Shown here: positions 21,745 to 31,600 of the stretch, piece by piece
Position numbering within the stretch: the stretch's first letter is position 1
How the letters are laid out: each line of letters opens with the position of its first letter
Origin: a virus
DNA length: 31,791 nucleotides
Virus genome (UHGV): UHGV-1970909
Reading direction: 5' to 3' (one strand)
Translations under genes and position numbers: made by a program
Notes under the pieces: model-generated
Database searches by the model: none
Told to the model about the DNA's origin: nothing
The model's input: only the letters and a program-made list of their open reading frames with translations

Positions 21745-22761
21745 ATGAAAAAACACCAAAAGAAAACCGCCAACATGACCGCCAGCGCACCGCAAAAAAT
21801 GGAGGCGTTCACCTTTGGTGAGCCTTCCCCCGTTCTGGATCGCCGCGACATCCTCGACTATGTCGAGTGCATCAATAACGGGAAATGGTACGAGCCGCCG
21901 GTCAACTTCTCGGGGCTGGCAAAAAGCCTGCGCGCCGCCGTCCATCACAGTTCCCCGATTTACGTGAAACGTAACATTCTGGCGAGCACCTACATTCCGC
22001 ACCCGTTGCTGTCACGTCAGGATTTCAGCCGCCTTGTGCTTGATTATCTGGTGTTTGCCAACGGCTATCTTGAAAAGCGCATGAGCGTCACCGGCCAGCT
22101 ATTAAAACTGGAAACCTCCCCGGCCAAATACACGCGGCGCGGTGTCGAGGATGGTGTTTACTGGTATGTATCGAGCTACACCCACCCGCACCCGTTCGCC
22201 CCCGGTTCGGTGTGTCATCTGCTTGAGCCCGATATCAATCAGGAGCTATACGGAATGCCGGAATACCTGAGCGCACTCAATTCAGCCTGGCTGAATGAAT
22301 CCGCCACCCTGTTTCGTCGCAAGTATTACCAGAACGGAGCACACGCGGGGTACATCATGTACGTCACCGACGCTGCGCAAAGCAGCACCGACGTTGAATC
22401 GCTCCGCAACGCGATGCGTGACTCGAAAGGGCTGGGGAATTTTAAGAACCTGTTTTTCTATGCGCCCAACGGGAAACCGGACGGGATCAAGATTGTGCCG
22501 TTGAGTGAAGTCGCCACGAAAGATGATTTTTTCAATATCAAAAAGGTGAGCGCCGCCGACCTGCTCGATGCGCACCGCGTGCCATTTCAGCTGATGGGCG
22601 GCAAGCCTGAAAACATCGGCTCAATGGGGGATGTCGAGAAGGTGGCGCGGGTGTTTGTGCGTAACGAACTGACACCGCTGCAAGAGCGTTTCAAAGAGAT
22701 TAACGACTGGCTGGGAATGGAGGTGATCCGCTTTAAAGATTACAGCCTCGAATCAGAATAA
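21745..22761 (+). CDS. Q: Portal (capsid vertex) protein gpQ, 338 aa
   Basis: Directly follows P and ends about 170 bp before cos, as in P2. Confidence 0.93.
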   Translation: MKKHQKKTANMTASAPQKMEAFTFGEPSPVLDRRDILDYVECINNGKWYEPPVNFSGLAKSLRAAVHHSSPIYVKRNILASTYIPHPLLSRQDFSRLVLDYLVFANGYLEKRMSVTGQLLKLETSPAKYTRRGVEDGVYWYVSSYTHPHPFAPGSVCHLLEPDINQELYGMPEYLSALNSAWLNESATLFRRKYYQNGAHAGYIMYVTDAAQSSTDVESLRNAMRDSKGLGNFKNLFFYAPNGKPDGIKIVPLSEVATKDDFFNIKKVSAADLLDAHRVPFQLMGGKPENIGSMGDVEKVARVFVRNELTPLQERFKEINDWLGMEVIRFKDYSLESE

Positions 22762-22774
22762 CCCCCTCAAAATG

Positions 22775-22795
22775 CCGCCTCCGGGCGGTATTATC
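22775..22795 (+). terminator. Candidate weak terminator after Q
   Basis: Short GC hairpin CCGCC-TCCG-GGCGG (22775-22788) followed by TATTATC, 14 nt after the Q stop. Confidence 0.3.
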
Positions 22796-22927
22796 ACTGA
22801 GCGCCTCAGACGCACCACACACCACCTAACCACCCGGCAGGCATCAGCCCGACCCGTAAAGCGACAGCGCCACCACGACGCGCTCAGGTGCGTAAAAATA
22901 AATGCTGTCACCACGTCTGGCGCGCAG

Positions 22928-22946
22928 TGCTATCCCCGCCTCGCCT
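22928..22946 (-). other. cos: cos site (19-nt cohesive-end sequence, minus strand GGCGAGGCGGGGATAGCAC)
   Basis: One mismatch from the P2 cohesive end as I recall it (GGCGAGGCGGGGAAAGCAC); located just beyond Q as in P2/186. Confidence 0.7.
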
Positions 22947-23194
22947 GCGCGCTTGATGGGGCGGTTTTAATGCAGATGCCAGCTTCGATTTTTCCTTGTC
23001 AATATTGACTTGAGTTACCGAGAATTTAGTCTGAAAAAAATGCAAATTAATGCAACAGAATGCCTTGTTTTCGCAGAAAGCTATCTGAACTCAAAATGGT
23101 ATTTACAACCCCCTTGTATTGATTATCATTATGAAAATGCACGTTTTACTAATCTATCACAAAAAACTCATGCATCAGTTTTGAAGGAGTTAGC

Positions 23195-24460
23195 ATGAAT
23201 ATAATGAAATGTTTTGAATGCGAAACCTGTGGTACACACATTGATTGTAGAATAGGACTTTCAAATCGAGATGTGCAGCCTTTTCAGTTTGCTTGTCCTG
23301 AATGTGAAGAAAAAATTACTTTTAATATTTTGGGTGAAGACTTCAACCTAGAAGGGGCCATTGATCTTGTTGATTTTGAGGCACCATTTACGGGGGGTAA
23401 TCATTTCATAGATTTACACTTGGATTTTCCCGCCTCATTTGAAAAATATGAAATGGGATTTACTCCATTCATGCGAGCTGCTCAGGAAATCGGTCATGAG
23501 AACTATCAGCATCTTAATGAGAGACTGAATGCTCTTAACTACTTATACCCTAAAAAGAGAGAGTTAAGACGCTTAATAACTCAGTATAAACGAGGCGAAG
23601 TAAATACATTTCGAAAAACCTGCAATAAGCTTCTTGGTATACAATTAAAATCTAATAAGAAACAAGATATATTAGCCGCTTTGTATACAGCAACATCCAT
23701 AATGTCTTCACCTTTTACCATACATCAACATAATGAAGAAATAAGCACTAAAATGCCTGATTTATTACGTTCGCTTGATTACACTCACAAAATAAAAACA
23801 AGGGCGTTTTTTGAACAGTTAATTAAAACTGGTTTCTTACGAAATGTACACCATGAATGCCTATCCTTGTACCCAAAAATCGTAGAATTAGACCTACCAT
23901 TAAGGCCAGCCCTTTATTTTGACTACAAGCAATTAAATGAAGGGGATAAAATTTCAGGGCGGGTTTCAACTGCTGACTTTGATAGTTGCAGTAATTTATA
24001 TAAGGATCTATCTGAAGTCTTTTCGCGATTATTAACATTAGTTGCGGGGCTTAATAATCTGCTAAAACGTGGAGATTATGATCTGTTTGATGATTCAGTT
24101 CGTTTAAATAAAAAACAAGAATTAATTAAAGAACTTGCATCTTTAAATAATTTTACCAATATGGATTTAGGTAAAAAAATAGAGTGTATTGATGATTCAT
24201 TTTATTACATCGACAAGAGTGCAATTAATCACAAGTTACGAAATGCAATTGCCCATTATAAATATGAGTACGAAGAATCTACACAAATGATTTTCTATTA
24301 CCCAAATAGAGAAGGAATGAGCAGAGAGAACATGTATGAAATTTCATTTCTTGAATTTCTTAGATATTCTTTGATGCTTTTTCGTGAGGTTCATTCATTG
24401 AATCACATTGTTAAATCATTGTTTTTTTACACTGTGCTTGTTTTAAAGAAGGACATTTAA
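23195..24460 (+). CDS. Cargo gene: N-terminal zinc-ribbon + C-terminal HEPN-like (R-x4-H) domain protein, 421 aa; candidate abortive-infection RNase
   Basis: AT-rich ORF with a strong AAGGAG Shine-Dalgarno; N-terminus CFECETCGTH...ACPECEEK (C-x2-C...C-x2-C); C-terminal motif HKLRNAIAHYKYEY (R349-N-x3-H354, nt 24239-24256); sits between cos and A, where P2 carries tin/old. Confidence 0.75.
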   Translation: MNIMKCFECETCGTHIDCRIGLSNRDVQPFQFACPECEEKITFNILGEDFNLEGAIDLVDFEAPFTGGNHFIDLHLDFPASFEKYEMGFTPFMRAAQEIGHENYQHLNERLNALNYLYPKKRELRRLITQYKRGEVNTFRKTCNKLLGIQLKSNKKQDILAALYTATSIMSSPFTIHQHNEEISTKMPDLLRSLDYTHKIKTRAFFEQLIKTGFLRNVHHECLSLYPKIVELDLPLRPALYFDYKQLNEGDKISGRVSTADFDSCSNLYKDLSEVFSRLLTLVAGLNNLLKRGDYDLFDDSVRLNKKQELIKELASLNNFTNMDLGKKIECIDDSFYYIDKSAINHKLRNAIAHYKYEYEESTQMIFYYPNREGMSRENMYEISFLEFLRYSLMLFREVHSLNHIVKSLFFYTVLVLKKDI

Positions 24461-24471
24461 AGCTAAAGGTA

Positions 24472-24509
24472 AGCTATGTAAATTACGTTTTTAATTACAT
24501 AGCTTTTAT
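24472..24509 (+). terminator. Rho-independent terminator of the HEPN cargo gene
   Basis: About 12-bp stem AGCTATGTAA(A)TT (24472-24484) / AATTACATAGCT (24493-24504) with loop ACGTTTTT, followed by TTTTATCTG; 12 nt after the stop. Confidence 0.6.
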
Positions 24510-24568
24510 CTGTTAATAATCTTTACGAATTTCTCAGATATTTGTTTAAGATCTTATATTATCATAAC

Positions 24569-24751
24569 CTACTCAGTCTTATAAAAAATATCATCTTCGG
24601 TTTCATTATTTTCGCTGTTTGCTAGATCAGCAATGAGAGTGAGCGCAAGCTTTAAATCTGCAGGCTTGCAGTTTGCAATCAGAGATACCTCGGCAATGAA
24701 TTGCACACAAGCCCACTTTTGCTGCGTTCGGCTGAAATGTTCCCCAACCAT
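24569..24751 (-). CDS. Small SOS-regulated ORF (60 aa, acidic C-terminus); candidate Tum-like antirepressor
   Basis: ATG preceded by GGGAGAG; a strong LexA box and a TTGCCA -35 lie directly upstream; position (far end from the immunity region, near cos) matches the 186 tum arrangement, but the protein is shorter than 186 Tum (146 aa). Confidence 0.55.
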   Translation of the reverse strand: MVGEHFSRTQQKWACVQFIAEVSLIANCKPADLKLALTLIADLANSENNETEDDIFYKTE

Positions 24752-24771
24752 GAAATCTCTCCCAATATTTT

Positions 24772-24791
24772 GACTGTATATTTATACAGTA
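24772..24791. promoter_or_regulatory. LexA (SOS) box GACTGTATATTTATACAGTA overlapping the -10 region of the small-ORF promoter
   Basis: CTGT-N8(AT-rich)-ACAG palindrome closely matching the consensus TACTGTATATATATACAGTA; minus strand shows TTGCCA -35 about 17 nt upstream of a TATAAA/TAAATA -10 inside the box. Confidence 0.7.
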
Positions 24792-24865
24792 TCACGTATT
24801 GGCAATTGATGGGAAGAGAAAAAGTGGATCACGTAGGTGTTGTATGTGCATGATATGGATGCGAA

Positions 24866-27088
24866 TTAGTCACCTATTAGCTTTGATGTTTCTGCCAATG
24901 CTGCAACACGATTGAGGATTTCCCTGGCCTTAGCCTGGCGTGATGGTGAGGTGGAAAATATCTCCCCTTTAGATGTTCCCTTGAGCCATTTTCCATCGAA
25001 ACAGCTTTTACCACCGGCCATAAGATGCAGGGCTTCACCCCGGCTGATGTTGATGCCGGTTGTCAGATGGATCTCGTCGATAGTCTTCTCTATCGCGGCG
25101 TTTTGCTCATCCGTGCCGTGGATAAATTTCTCCCTTTTTGGTGGCTTTGGCTTCTTGAGTCGGTTCGTCAGCTCTCGCCTTTCACGTCTACTCAGAGGTT
25201 TTGATAAATCGAGTTCCGGCGGATCACTTTCGCTTCCCGTACAGTTATTGACAGAACTCCAAGGGACGGCGAAGCCGTCCTTAACGTCAACGGCCAAATC
25301 AACGGCACGCTTCGGTACAATTTTCCATTGCGTGAGCCGGGTTAAAATCGGGGTGCCAGCTCCGACAGCAGAATCGTATACACCACGAATGCAGACAGTT
25401 TCCTCACCATACTGGTTAATTTCGGTACGCGGTTCATAAAGCGTGCGCACCTGCAAATCATCGCGACGGACAAACGGACCGCCCTGCGCATTAACATAGC
25501 CAGCCCAATCACCGGCGTCGGCGGCATCATGGACAGCCGCAAACTCAACACTCAGACCGTGTGCGGTCTCGGTATCTGCAAGGCGACGCAATTCACGATA
25601 GACAGTAACCGGCGCACCGCCAATAAACTGAAACTGGCGTATATGCCAGCGAGCAGCCCATGCTGAAACAGCGGGAGCTGACTCTTTTAGCAGTTCGCCG
25701 CTTTCATCATCGGTTTCACCATCAAGAGCATAACCATCGATATTTTTCGAGATGTATTTCGCGACGTAGCCGGTTGCGCTGCCTTTCTCCGGATCAATGG
25801 CTTCTGCGTGGAAACGTGCTTTTTTGGCTTTATCGCTTTTGAGTTCGTGAAAATCTTCCTGCCATGCGTAGTCCCGAATAATGCCACGAACGGTATCGAC
25901 GTCCTCCGGGAGCATAAACATCAGCATATGCCAGTGAGGGCAACCGTCATGGTGAGGCTCTGCAACGCGGATCCCGAAAATACGAATGTCTTCACGGTGG
26001 AGTTTTGCGCGAATGCGTGCCCACAGGCCAGTGAGATAACATTGCGTATCGGATGGATTGGATCCACTCCATTTGGTGTTACGGTAGCCTGCCTTTGTCG
26101 TGGCGTGATATTTAGACGGTGCGGTCAGGGTGTAAAACTCACCAACATAACCGAGCTCATTGCAGATATTTTCAAACCCACGAATGCGGGTCATAAGCTC
26201 ACAGCGTCGAATCGCAGGGTTAGCGACTGAGCCATCGTATTTTTCAATCAGGCTGATACGGTTGCCGTCTTCGTCTTCAAGCTCCAGACCTTTGAGAAAT
26301 TCGCGCGTCCGGCGCTTCTGTTCACGCCAGTCTGTCACGCAGTGTTTACTCGCGTAGACATGTTTTTTCTTACTGACATTTCCGATTGCGATTTGCAGGT
26401 GTTCGCGCCACGCAGCCGCAACGCGACGCAGACGTCCACGCCACCATTTTTCCGAAAACATACGGGCAATTGCTGGAGCGACTTTATCCTGATCCCAATA
26501 TTTATCCCGCGACCGTTCCCACTCTGGTGGCATTATCCTGAATTGCTGAGTGATGAAACCAGCATGCATATACCAGGCATTTAATGTCTCCAGTTCACAC
26601 ATGTCAGAATCGTCAATGTTGACTAACTCTGCACGGATAAAATCGGCGATATCAGCAGCCAGCAGGTCGATGTCGGCGCGTGCCATATCCGGGAGTCGGT
26701 TGTATCTGGCGACTATGTTGACCATGCGAGACGCCAGATATTGCATAAGCTGGGTATCGAAATGACAACCGAAAACAGCGGCTGATACGTTGCTGTTAAT
26801 ACCGGTGCACTCGTATTTTTTTGCGACCAGTTCAAGACGCGGCAATGCCTTTTTGCAAAAGCTGATTAAAAAGGCATTGGCTCGTTGACTGCCCTGATTT
26901 TGCTCCAGCACAGCAGCGGTGCGATAAACATCAAAACGCACACATTCAGGCTGGAGAGAAAGCACCTTTCTCGCATGCAGCAAAGCCGCGAACATACGGT
27001 CACGGCGATACTGTTGGTCGTAGGTAAGATATGGACTGGTTATTGCCGACCGTGGAGCATTCCACGGAAAAGCGAATTGAACAGCCAA
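24866..27088 (-). CDS. A: Rolling-circle replication initiation protein gpA (HUH endonuclease), 740 aa
   Basis: Contains EPHHDGCPHWHMLMF (HUH-type motif) and GYVAKYISKNIDGYALDG (active-site tyrosine region) as in P2 A; six-frame start is TTG overlapping the upstream stop, so the true start is uncertain (first in-frame ATG is at residue 32). Confidence 0.9.
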   Translation of the reverse strand: MAVQFAFPWNAPRSAITSPYLTYDQQYRRDRMFAALLHARKVLSLQPECVRFDVYRTAAVLEQNQGSQRANAFLISFCKKALPRLELVAKKYECTGINSNVSAAVFGCHFDTQLMQYLASRMVNIVARYNRLPDMARADIDLLAADIADFIRAELVNIDDSDMCELETLNAWYMHAGFITQQFRIMPPEWERSRDKYWDQDKVAPAIARMFSEKWWRGRLRRVAAAWREHLQIAIGNVSKKKHVYASKHCVTDWREQKRRTREFLKGLELEDEDGNRISLIEKYDGSVANPAIRRCELMTRIRGFENICNELGYVGEFYTLTAPSKYHATTKAGYRNTKWSGSNPSDTQCYLTGLWARIRAKLHREDIRIFGIRVAEPHHDGCPHWHMLMFMLPEDVDTVRGIIRDYAWQEDFHELKSDKAKKARFHAEAIDPEKGSATGYVAKYISKNIDGYALDGETDDESGELLKESAPAVSAWAARWHIRQFQFIGGAPVTVYRELRRLADTETAHGLSVEFAAVHDAADAGDWAGYVNAQGGPFVRRDDLQVRTLYEPRTEINQYGEETVCIRGVYDSAVGAGTPILTRLTQWKIVPKRAVDLAVDVKDGFAVPWSSVNNCTGSESDPPELDLSKPLSRRERRELTNRLKKPKPPKREKFIHGTDEQNAAIEKTIDEIHLTTGINISRGEALHLMAGGKSCFDGKWLKGTSKGEIFSTSPSRQAKAREILNRVAALAETSKLIGD

Positions 27089-28924: not shown

Positions 28925-29503
28925 ATGAAATTGGATGAGTTAGAGGGTGGAAAAGCAGTGCTGCAGCGCATCCTTGATGCGTATGGCTTCACCATGCAAA
29001 AACAACTCGGTGACCTGCATGAGCTGTCATCGGGAACAATTAGCACGTGGGTTAGGCGTAATTTTTTCCCCGGGGATGTTGTTGTTGCATGCGCTTTGGA
29101 TACTGGGGTGTCTTTACGTTGGTTGGCAACAGGGAAGGGGAACAAGTTTGATGCTGACCATACTAATGGCGAAATGAAAACATTAGACCGATTGGATATT
29201 GTTGCAGGTAAGCTGCAGGAAAACGGTCATTGGATTGTTGATGCTAATCTTTTTTCTACTGACGCGACGCACCCTAATTACATAGTAAAAGGCCAGCAGT
29301 CCTGGATAGTTGACTTCGATATGACTGATATAGCAAATGGCCGATGGATGCTCAGTATCGACGGGGATCATGATGTCTATGACGTTGCAAGGATCCCGGG
29401 GAACAGAATAAAAGTCAGCAACGCTGATGCCGATTTTCAATGCTCAGTTTCTGAGGTTAAGTGTATTGGCATGGTGCTGGTAAGCCTGACGAAATCTAGC
29501 TAA
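28925..29503 (+). CDS. cI: CI immunity repressor (186-CI-like), 192 aa
   Basis: Start at MKLDELEGGKAVLQRILDAYGF gives 192 aa, the 186 CI length as I recall it; N-terminal HTH; immediately upstream of int on the same strand. Confidence 0.85.
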   Translation: MKLDELEGGKAVLQRILDAYGFTMQKQLGDLHELSSGTISTWVRRNFFPGDVVVACALDTGVSLRWLATGKGNKFDADHTNGEMKTLDRLDIVAGKLQENGHWIVDANLFSTDATHPNYIVKGQQSWIVDFDMTDIANGRWMLSIDGDHDVYDVARIPGNRIKVSNADADFQCSVSEVKCIGMVLVSLTKSS

Positions 29504-30595: not shown

Positions 30596-31600
30596 ATGCC
30601 TACCAATCGTACTAGATACTCATTTTTAAGCCCAATGAGTATCAGTGATAGCGTCAGTGTTTTTTTTGCAGCCCTTGATTTTTTTTCAATCCCTGGACAG
30701 GACAAGGTTAGGAAAACTATAGCTATACCTCAAACCAATAATGGTATTCATCCTCTTCCTGCTGGTTCTTTCATGGATTATATTAAGGCGTTAAATATTT
30801 TGGCTGAGCCTGATCGCCACATGCAAAATATACGAAAGCTACTTAACAAAATGGAAGGTGTAGGTTTGTTAGTACCTATGGGGAACTCTGGGAGTGTATT
30901 TTTCCCAACCAATTATTACTTCTTGAAAGAATTAACTGAGAGAGAAAAGAAAGGTCGATTCTGGTTGTCTGAATGCTTGGGGCCTGAGTATGTGTACAAG
31001 TTTTTTGGTAATTTAATCATACATATCGTAGGCATGACATCAGATGGAGATGAACATGGAGGCACTGGAGTTATTATTAATGATAAACTGGTTTTGACAT
31101 GCAAGCATGTAATCGATGAAATGGTTATCAATGATACTCAATTTATTAATGGTAGTCAGATCAAAGTAGTCAACACGCATACACATAATGAAATTGATGT
31201 TGGAATTATTGAGTTCGAACCAAATAGCTTTATTGTAAATGGGAATGTGTGTTTTGATTCTCCGCACTTAAATGATGATATATATGTTTTAGGCTATCCA
31301 CCAATTCCATATTCAAAAGAAGTTGCGCCAATAATGCAGAAAGGTGAGATTACTAACCCTGAAATTACTACATTGGATAATCATACGGTTTTTCTTTTCT
31401 CTGCTATAGCTAGACCTGGTAATAGTGGAGGTCCAATTATTGCTAGGAATGGCAGGATCCTTGGGATAGTCACGAAAGAGCTATCACTTCAAGAAAGCAA
31501 TAACTTCCCGTTCTTTGCGGGGATTCCAACAAATGAAATAGTAACAGCCCTCTCTGATATGGGGTTTGGAGGGATACTTCCTGTCGAAAATTATCAGTAG
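30596..31600 (+). CDS. Cargo gene: two-domain protein with C-terminal trypsin/chymotrypsin-like serine protease (H171, D201, S277 in GNSGGP) and an unrecognised N-terminal domain, 334 aa
   Basis: AT-rich ORF with a perfect AAGGAG Shine-Dalgarno; motifs TCKHVI, EIDVGIIEF and ARPGNSGGPII in H-D-S order; no signal peptide evident; sits between int and the right integrase arm repeats. Confidence 0.75.
   Translation: MPTNRTRYSFLSPMSISDSVSVFFAALDFFSIPGQDKVRKTIAIPQTNNGIHPLPAGSFMDYIKALNILAEPDRHMQNIRKLLNKMEGVGLLVPMGNSGSVFFPTNYYFLKELTEREKKGRFWLSECLGPEYVYKFFGNLIIHIVGMTSDGDEHGGTGVIINDKLVLTCKHVIDEMVINDTQFINGSQIKVVNTHTHNEIDVGIIEFEPNSFIVNGNVCFDSPHLNDDIYVLGYPPIPYSKEVAPIMQKGEITNPEITTLDNHTVFLFSAIARPGNSGGPIIARNGRILGIVTKELSLQESNNFPFFAGIPTNEIVTALSDMGFGGILPVENYQ

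What the first reader, a model, noticed from the sequence alone, without database searches (positions are those of the whole stretch)
24569..24791. Consensus LexA box driving a 60-aa ORF at the cos-proximal end: putative SOS induction module (Tum-like)
The palindrome CTGT-ATATTTAT-ACAG overlaps the -10 of a minus-strand promoter (TTGCCA -35) ahead of a well-initiated 60-aa ORF. In 186, prophage induction by DNA damage is mediated by a LexA-controlled antirepressor (Tum) located at the far end from cI near cos, and this prophage has a 186-like CI/Apl/CII region. The product is much shorter than 186 Tum, so it may be a minimal or different antirepressor, or a DinI-like SOS modulator. It is also convergent with the HEPN gene, separated only by a hairpin.
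Basis: partly seen in the sequence, partly recalled or inferred. Interest (0 to 1): 0.6.

Follow-up and report, generated by a model that had tools for sequence, protein, structure and literature searches.

The report
LexA-controlled TumA prophage antirepressor gene
This is an ordinary, already named part of P2/186-like prophages: a 60-residue antirepressor gene (tumA) behind a LexA-repressed promoter, which lets DNA damage switch the prophage into lytic growth.

Summary
A near-consensus LexA box sits 22 nt upstream of a well-initiated 60-aa ORF (24569..24751, minus strand). The box core is 24774..24789 and it matches the 20-mer consensus at 18 of 20 positions. The module lies between replication gene A and cos.

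The ORF is 95% identical to TumA of Salmonella phage PSP3, annotated as "similar to 5' end 186 tum; UV induction of prophage". A family profile aligns it to residues 10-58 of 186 Tum. Promoter and box align base for base with the 186 p95 promoter.

A LexA box lies 35-41 nt upstream of tumA in 29 of 30 loci across many enterobacterial genera. The thirtieth locus has a 5'-truncated match. The prophage carries a 186-type CI, the expected target.

Two corrections apply:
- The protein is the antirepressor half of Tum, not DinI-like. The DinI-like half (tumB) is absent here and in 20 of 28 related loci.

The module is already known, so interest is low.

One modest lead came up. TumA co-occurs with a CI subfamily whose HTH domain is conserved (65-86% identity) while the C-terminal domain diverges (34-46%). 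This hints that the HTH domain is TumA's target.

The parts
24569..24751 (-). tumA: 60-aa antirepressor ORF, predicted helical hairpin with an acidic C-terminal tail
   Evidence: ORF list. 57 of 60 residues identical to PSP3 TumA. phrog_1993, E = 4e-31. Profile match to 186 Tum residues 10-58. AlphaFold2 model with helices 2-25 and 30-50, pLDDT 80. Synonymous codon changes outnumber nonsynonymous ones in all 15 comparisons.
24772..24791 (.). LexA (SOS) box: 20-mer TACTGTATAAATATACAGTC on the minus strand, core CTGT-N8-ACAG at 24774..24789
   Evidence: Aligns to the annotated LexA site of 186 p95. A box is found 35-41 nt upstream of the tumA ATG in 29 of 30 loci; L032 reads 70 nt because its match starts at residue 11. 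TACTGT...ACAGT is invariant in 21 aligned promoters.
24786..24791 (-). Probable -10 hexamer TACTGT, which is the left arm of the LexA box
   Evidence: Equivalent to the annotated 186 p95 -10. Invariant in alignment A5. Inferred, not mapped.
24810..24815 (-). Probable -35 hexamer TTCCCA, 18 nt upstream of TACTGT
   Evidence: Equivalent to the annotated 186 p95 -35, TTCACA. CTTC(A/C)CA is nearly invariant across genera.
24800..24805 (-).
   Evidence: Varies among relatives (TTATCA, TTGCTA, TTACCA, TTCTCA and others). The hexamers 16-18 nt downstream match TATAAT at only 2-3 of 6 positions (read).
24757..24763 (-). Shine-Dalgarno GGGAGAG
   Evidence: Sequence. GGGAG(G/A)G is conserved in alignment A5.
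24471..24505 (.). AT-rich hairpin between the convergent tumA and 421-aa genes; likely terminator, with a T-run only on the + strand side
   Evidence: Arm positions. The fold of the spacer gives z = -2.6. Not flagged by the terminator scan.
28925..29503 (+). cI: 186-type immunity repressor (192 aa), the presumed target of TumA
   Evidence: 28% identity to 186 CI, E = 3e-29. PF07022 and PF16452 on the identical gene in public contigs. HTH domain 82-85% identical to the CIs of TumA-carrying phages (83-86% on local alignment).
24866..27088 (-). Replication gene A, immediately upstream of the tumA promoter
   Evidence: PF05840, E = 2e-129.
22927..22945 (-). cos-like cohesive-end sequence GGCGAGGCGGGGATAGCAC

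Best explanation
The ORF is tumA, the stand-alone antirepressor half of the phage 186 Tum protein, expressed from a p95-type promoter whose -10 lies inside a strong LexA operator.

In a lysogen, host LexA sits on the box and keeps tumA silent. DNA damage activates RecA and LexA cleaves itself. TumA, a small helical-hairpin protein, is then made and binds the prophage's 186-type CI repressor. CI stops binding DNA, the early lytic promoter is derepressed and the prophage is induced.

Shown here:
- the identity of the gene;
- the box and its conservation;
- homology of the promoter to 186 p95;
- the presence of the matching CI type;
- purifying selection on the reading frame.

Inferred from 186 and PSP3:
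- LexA binding;
- SOS-dependent transcription;
- binding of TumA to CI.

Further inference from co-conservation: the contact is probably with CI's helix-turn-helix N-terminal domain. The DinI-like partner gene tumB found in PSP3 is absent, so the operon here is tumA alone and ends at a hairpin.
For: - 95% identity to PSP3 TumA, annotated 'similar to 5' end 186 tum; UV induction of prophage'.
- Lemire et al. [quoted passage not shown]
- Profile-to-sequence alignment to 186 Tum residues 10-58: probability 86.6%, E = 4.5e-6.
- The promoter and LexA box align with the annotated 186 p95 promoter and LexA site.
- 186 p95-tum is an SOS-derepressed anti-CI module (PMC7708051).
- In another P2-like prophage, deleting tum or making lexA non-cleavable abolishes mitomycin C induction (PMC12055606).
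- A LexA box lies at a fixed distance in 29 of 30 loci from more than 15 genera; the thirtieth has a truncated match.
- Synonymous changes exceed nonsynonymous ones in every comparison, for example 13 against 2.
- CI is 186-type.
- In the phage collection, the 10 records that encode TumA are exactly the 10 best CI matches. The other 141 CI relatives, all at 35% identity or less, have no TumA hit.
- The CI HTH domain is 65-86% identical among TumA carriers, against 34-46% for the C-terminal domain.
Against: - There is no direct experiment on this sequence.
- The only functional statement for a split TumA is a personal communication quoted in papers.
- BLASTP against 186 Tum finds nothing, and the profile match is moderate.
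- The promoter hexamers are weak: 4 of 6 and 3 of 6 matches to consensus. The consensus scan missed them.
- The CI here has one HTH domain and a divergent C-terminal domain compared with PSP3's two-HTH CI, so the PSP3 result may not transfer fully.
- Co-conservation of TumA and the CI N-terminal domain could reflect shared ancestry rather than contact.
Confidence: 0.87

Rival explanations
1. The small protein is SOS-induced but does not act on CI. It acts on a host target such as RecA, LexA or cell division, in the way DinI-like modulators do.
For: The C-terminal half of 186 Tum is DinI-like and is annotated as modulating SOS induction. No binding data exist for this protein. It has no Pfam or NCBIfam family.
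Against: There is no DinI signal: Pfam gives nothing at E up to 1, and the TumB/DinI HMM and tblastn find nothing in the window. The ORF aligns to the non-DinI N-terminal part of Tum. Published text assigns the antirepressor activity to the upstream PSP3 gene. TumA occurs only with one CI subfamily.
Confidence: 0.06
2. The module is a decayed remnant. A deletion that brought in the 421-aa cargo gene removed tumB and left a non-functional or insufficient half, so the prophage is poorly SOS-inducible or not inducible.
For: Homology to PSP3-type phages stops about 11 nt after the tumA stop. tumB is missing. All 10 sequenced phage isolates with TumA also carry the DinI-like gene.
Against: The ORF, Shine-Dalgarno, box and promoter are intact. 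20 of 28 evaluable species-representative loci also lack tumB. The exact protein, with the same gene order at all seven places shown, is listed in 319 index blocks of public assemblies. The reading frame is under purifying selection. PSP3's antirepressor activity is assigned to tumA alone.
Confidence: 0.05
3. The LexA-controlled promoter mainly makes an RNA that runs antisense into the convergent 421-aa gene, and the ORF is incidental.
For: The genes are convergent and separated by 108 nt. The hairpin lacks a clear T-run on the minus strand.
Against: The protein sequence is conserved with excess synonymous change. The same tumA is followed by unrelated cargo, or by same-strand genes, in other loci. 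No RNA family matches.
Confidence: 0.02

Closest known systems
TumA of Salmonella phage PSP3 (AAN08399.1), with equivalents in SEN1, SW9, SI22, Midge, RCIP0057 and vB_EcoM-613R3
   Same: 60 aa and 93-95% identical. Same position after gene A, same LexA box and promoter, and same PHROG.
   Different: In all those phages tumB (DinI-like) starts 3 nt after tumA; here it is absent and a convergent 421-aa gene follows. Their CI is about 280 aa with two HTH domains. Here CI is 192 aa with one HTH domain and a C-terminal domain only 33-36% identical.
Tum of coliphage 186 (NP_052290.1), expressed from the LexA-repressed p95 promoter
   Same: Same genomic slot (gene A, then p95/LexA box, then tum, then cos). 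The promoter DNA is homologous. The N-terminal about 58 residues align to the TumA profile. The repressor is CI-type.
   Different: 186 Tum is a 146-aa fusion with a DinI-like C-terminal half and is followed by orf97. Pairwise protein similarity to the ORF is undetectable by BLASTP, and CI is only 28% identical.
LexA-controlled antirepressors of Gifsy/Fels-1 prophages (GfoA, GftA) and AntC of N15
   Same: These are also small SOS-induced proteins that bind a non-cleavable repressor and can act in trans. In Gifsy they share an operon with a dinI homologue (PMC3121763).
   Different: They belong to lambdoid or N15-type phages with unrelated repressors. In Gifsy the gene order is reversed, with dinI first. 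Sequence relatedness to TumA was not tested here.
DinI (PF06183)
   Same: It is SOS-regulated and is the usual downstream neighbour (TumB) of tumA in many relatives.
   Different: The ORF has no DinI similarity, and no DinI-like gene is present in this window.

Membership tests
TumA / 186 Tum-type LexA-controlled antirepressor | Sequence homology to PSP3 TumA | tested here: met
   57 of 60 residues identical, E = 4e-44. phrog_1993, E = 4e-31.
TumA / 186 Tum-type LexA-controlled antirepressor | Homology to the N-terminal (non-DinI) half of 186 Tum | tested here: met
   hhalign of a 30-sequence family profile against 186 Tum gives probability 86.6% and E = 4.5e-6, aligning TumA 12-60 with Tum 10-58. 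The narrower profile gave 56% and E = 1e-4. BLASTP alone was negative. The match is moderate, and it is supported by colinear promoter homology.
TumA / 186 Tum-type LexA-controlled antirepressor | LexA operator overlapping the core promoter just upstream of the gene | tested here: met
   18 of 20 matches to the consensus. Aligned to the annotated 186 LexA site and -10. Found at 35-41 nt in 29 of 30 loci; the thirtieth has a truncated match.
TumA / 186 Tum-type LexA-controlled antirepressor | Location between replication gene A and cos, far from cI | tested here: met
   gpA ends at 24866. The cos-like site is at 22927..22945, the portal gene at 21745..22761 and cI at 28925..29503.
TumA / 186 Tum-type LexA-controlled antirepressor | A cognate 186-type CI repressor (PF07022 + PF16452, not RecA-cleavable) in the same prophage | tested here: met
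   Non-cleavability was not tested.
TumA / 186 Tum-type LexA-controlled antirepressor | SOS-dependent transcription that is repressed by LexA | not testable with these tools
   Needs a LexA gel-shift assay and RT-qPCR after mitomycin C.
TumA / 186 Tum-type LexA-controlled antirepressor | The protein binds CI and prevents operator binding; deletion abolishes induction | not testable with these tools
   Only indirect support: TumA co-occurs with one CI subfamily.
DinI family (PF06183) | Match to the DinI profile | tested here: not met
   No Pfam hit at E up to 1. An HMM built from TumB/DinI-like sequences finds nothing in the window. tblastn with PSP3 TumB gives a best E of 0.23 elsewhere in the window.
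HEPN (claimed for the neighbouring 421-aa gene) | HEPN domain with an Rx4-6H motif | tested here: inconclusive
   An RNAIAH motif lies at residues 349-354, but there is no Pfam, PADLOC or NCBIfam hit. No structure was predicted.

The most novel reading that the evidence does not exclude
TumA is a portable, self-sufficient antirepressor that recognises the conserved helix-turn-helix N-terminal domain shared by otherwise mosaic CI repressors, both the single-HTH and double-HTH forms. One SOS-induced TumA could then trans-induce every co-resident prophage of this CI subfamily. The DinI-like half of 186 Tum would be optional cargo, since most lineages lack it.
Probability: 0.35. Interest if true: 0.35.

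Novelty: already known. Interest (0 to 1): 0.15.

Why it matters
It predicts that this prophage is induced by DNA damage through an antirepressor rather than by repressor cleavage. It also locates the switch precisely.

The practical value is in annotation. TumA has no Pfam or NCBIfam model. Its PHROG is labelled 'unknown function', and RefSeq calls it 'hypothetical protein'. As a result, SOS-inducibility of many enterobacterial P2/186-like prophages goes unannotated.

Two further observations are small but testable additions to a known mechanism. tumA without tumB is the commoner arrangement. TumA also tracks the CI HTH domain.

Tried and rejected
- **Pfam, NCBIfam and PADLOC on the ORF:** no hits.
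- **BLASTP against 186 Tum:** no alignment. A profile was needed.
- **First LexA pattern:** it was mistyped with 10 Ns after CTGT and gave irrelevant matches. Corrected.
- **Sigma-70 and terminator consensus scan:** flagged neither the promoter nor the hairpin.
- **PDB searches:** the sequence search returned only spurious S100 and designed-protein hits. Foldseek on the AlphaFold2 model returned only generic helical hairpins at E of 2 or more, which is uninformative.
- **Rfam on 22700..25000:** nothing credible.
- **Literature search for 'TumA':** it mostly returns the unrelated TumE-TumA toxin-antitoxin system, a name clash. TumA together with PSP3 gave no paper. Bunny 2002 and Lamont 1989 are not held.
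- **Type of tum in the E. coli HS prophage DuoHS:** I tried to find out whether the tum deleted there is the split type. That strain was not among the hits for either the split or the fused tum, so the genetic evidence cannot be assigned to the TumA type.
- **Heterology index or weight-matrix score for LexA:** not computed, because I had no verified site table.
- **Rejected readings:** DinI-like modulator, decayed remnant and antisense-only promoter (see the rival explanations).

Full report
**What is in the sequence**

The window is most of a P2/186-like prophage. On the minus strand, replication gene A (24866..27088; PF05840, E = 2e-129) ends at a TAA. About 50 nt further on comes a promoter region, then a 60-aa ORF at 24569..24751.

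CTGTATATTTATACAG lies at 24774..24789 and is the only CTGT-N8-ACAG in the window. That count alone is not striking, since 0.31 are expected by chance. The 20-mer at 24772..24791, however, matches the LexA consensus TACTGT(AT)4ACAGTA at 18 of 20 positions, and none of 100 shuffles did so.

The ORF has a GGGAGAG Shine-Dalgarno, with 7 nt between GGAG and the ATG. It is convergent with a 421-aa gene (23195..24460). The 108-nt spacer holds one AT-rich hairpin with arms at 24471..24481 and 24495..24505. A cos-like sequence lies at 22927..22945, next to the portal gene (21745..22761; PF04860 on the identical gene in public contigs). The description 'cos-proximal' is therefore right.

**What the ORF is**

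It has no Pfam, NCBIfam or PADLOC match, but it hits phrog_1993 ('unknown function') at E = 4e-31.

A DNA search of sequenced phages finds the promoter and ORF at 87-88% identity in PSP3, SEN1, SW9, SI22, Midge, RCIP0057 and vB_EcoM-613R3. In PSP3 the gene is annotated tumA, 'similar to 5' end 186 tum; UV induction of prophage'. It is followed 3 nt later by tumB, 'similar to dinI and 3' end of 186 tum'. The window protein is 57 of 60 residues identical to PSP3 TumA.

Lemire et al. [quoted passage not shown] This is a personal communication from G.E. Christie, cited through Bunny et al. 2002 (PMC3121763).

**Link to 186 Tum**

BLASTP between the ORF and 186 Tum (146 aa) finds nothing. I therefore collected the family:
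- The large protein collection holds 188 clusters at 90% identity, almost all 59-63 aa and from Enterobacteriaceae.
- A profile search of 1.8 billion representatives added more distant members of about 60 aa, giving 37 hits in all.

A 30-sequence profile aligns TumA 12-60 with Tum 10-58 at 86.6% probability and E = 4.5e-6. A narrower profile had given 56%.

Independently, the promoter DNA aligns base for base with the annotated 186 p95 promoter and LexA site. For 186, p95-tum is established as the SOS-derepressed anti-CI module (PMC7708051).

**Conservation of the control region**

A scan of one genome per species returned 29 loci, from Enterobacter, Citrobacter, Escherichia, Yokenella, Kluyvera, Pluralibacter, Atlantibacter, Kosakonia, Buttiauxella, Phytobacter, Dryocola, Winslowiella, Pantoea and Franconibacter.

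In 28 of these 29 loci, and in the window, a CTG-N10-CAG box lies 35-41 nt upstream of the tumA ATG. The remaining locus, L032, reads 70 nt because its match starts at residue 11.

In an alignment of 21 of these promoters with those of 186 and PSP3:
- TACTGT...ACAGT is invariant.
- CTTC(A/C)CA, 18 nt upstream of it, is nearly invariant.

The conserved pair TTCCCA (24810..24815) and TACTGT (24786..24791) corresponds to the -35 and -10 annotated for 186 p95. The LexA box therefore contains the -10, and LexA binding would occlude the promoter. No start site was mapped here.

**Is the ORF translated?**

Codon comparisons with 15 relatives show more synonymous than nonsynonymous codon changes in every case. 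Examples are 13 against 2, 20 against 8 and 29 against 18.

The AlphaFold2 model is a helical hairpin with helices 2-25 and 30-50. Mean pLDDT is 80 and exceeds 90 over residues 11-40. The tail is poorly ordered and acidic, with 6 Asp/Glu in the last 16 residues. Fold and sequence searches of the PDB gave nothing specific.

**The target**

The prophage has the 186-type switch. CI lies at 28925..29503 (192 aa from the internal ATG) and aligns to 186 CI at 28% identity, E = 3e-29. PF07022 and PF16452 are recorded for the identical gene in public contigs. The neighbours are the divergent apl and cII (PF06892), fil, dhr, a DUF2732 gene and a traR-like gene.

In the phage collection, 151 records hold a CI relative. 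The ten best (47-50% identity) are exactly the ten records that encode TumA (93-95% identity). The rest, at 35% identity or less, have no TumA hit.

Split by domain, the window CI is 82-85% identical to those CIs over the HTH domain (residues 8-73) but only 33-36% identical over the C-terminal domain. Five further TumA-carrying contigs show the same pattern on local alignment, where the range over all TumA carriers is 65-86% for the HTH domain against 34-46% for the C-terminal domain. 186 itself, with its very divergent Tum, has 41% and 25%.

The PSP3-type CIs are about 280 aa with two tandem HTH domains. The window CI has only the one next to the C-terminal domain.

This supports, but does not prove, the idea that TumA contacts the HTH domain. 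Shared descent is the alternative explanation.

**What is different here**

There is no tumB. tblastn with PSP3 TumB and an HMM built from TumB sequences both find nothing in the window.

This is not unusual. Only 8 of 28 evaluable species-representative loci have a DinI-like gene after tumA. In contrast, all ten phage isolates and the E. coli prophages have one.

Downstream of tumA the content is highly variable. It includes methyltransferases, a GmrSD-like gene, a 918-aa HD-CE protein and large unknown ORFs. In Kosakonia and Pluralibacter lineages a gpX/holin/lysozyme block follows instead.

This fits the known defence hotspot between gpA and gpQ of P2-like phages (PMC9122126). tumA sits at the gpA edge of that hotspot, and the 421-aa gene occupies the cargo slot.

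The exact 60-aa protein, with the same gene order at all seven places shown, is listed in 319 index blocks of public assemblies. The E. coli complete genomes hold tumA only at about 87% DNA identity and have no match to the 421-aa cargo gene.

**Mechanism and confidence**

The most likely mechanism is the 186/PSP3 one:
1. LexA represses the tumA promoter.
2. DNA damage removes LexA.
3. TumA is made and inactivates CI.
4. The lytic promoter fires.

I put this at about 0.87.

The rivals are a host-directed SOS modulator, a decayed remnant and an antisense-only promoter. Each is contradicted by several results, and together they get about 0.13.

Genetic evidence that tum and cleavable LexA are required for mitomycin C induction exists for another P2-like prophage, DuoHS (PMC12055606). 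I could not establish whether its tum is the split type.

**Verdict**

The module is already known and named, though poorly propagated in annotation. Interest is low.

The only mildly new points are that tumA alone is the commoner arrangement and that TumA tracks the CI HTH domain across mosaic repressors.

Noticed in passing
window 23195..24460 (+): A 421-aa gene sits in the gpA-gpQ cos-proximal defence hotspot. Its only family hit is phrog_13366 (unknown function, E = 5e-165), with no Pfam, PADLOC or NCBIfam hit. It has CxxC pairs at residues 6 and 34 and an RNAIAH (Rx4H, HEPN-like) motif at residues 349-354 (nt 24239..24256). It is a candidate uncharacterised defence gene.
   Followed up: partly
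window 28925..29503 (+); L041, L042, L043: The CI repressor is mosaic. Its single HTH domain is 82-85% identical to the second HTH domain of the about 280-aa, double-HTH CIs of PSP3, SW9 and Midge. Its C-terminal domain is only 33-36% identical to theirs.
   Followed up: partly
window 30596..31600 (+): A 334-aa ORF lies just beyond the integrase gene. It has a trypsin-like serine protease domain and PADLOC hits to RT-Protease_XI, LmuA and HamA models (E from 8e-16 to 2.5e-8). It may be a defence gene at the prophage edge.
   Followed up: no
window 24841..24860 (-): The block ATCCATATCATGCACATACA lies between the gene A stop codon and the tumA -35. It is partly conserved across genera, with several nearly invariant positions in alignment A5. 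Its role is unknown.
   Followed up: no
L010, L015-L017, L019-L021, L023 (downstream of tumA): In the Yokenella, Pluralibacter and Kosakonia lineages (and two loci labelled Enterobacter and Enterobacteriaceae), tumA is followed on the same strand by a LysM tail protein (gpX-like), a holin-like gene and a lysozyme-like gene, not by cos and the portal gene. This is a different genome order for the same LexA-tumA module.
   Followed up: no
L046 6960..9716; L047 6957..8735; L011 and L024 downstream of tumA: Identical or near-identical tumA genes are followed by different cargo: a 918-aa HD-CE protein, a GmrSD-like protein, or DNA methyltransferase-like ORFs. This shows rapid turnover of the hotspot right after the tumA stop codon.
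   Followed up: partly
window 24569..24751 (annotation): There is an annotation gap and a name clash. TumA has no Pfam or NCBIfam model, and RefSeq labels it 'hypothetical protein'. The name TumA is also used for the unrelated antitoxin of the TumE-TumA system (PMC10584680).
   Followed up: yes
window 22927..22945 (-): The cos-like cohesive-end sequence GGCGAGGCGGGGATAGCAC lies between the portal gene and the 421-aa gene.
   Followed up: partly
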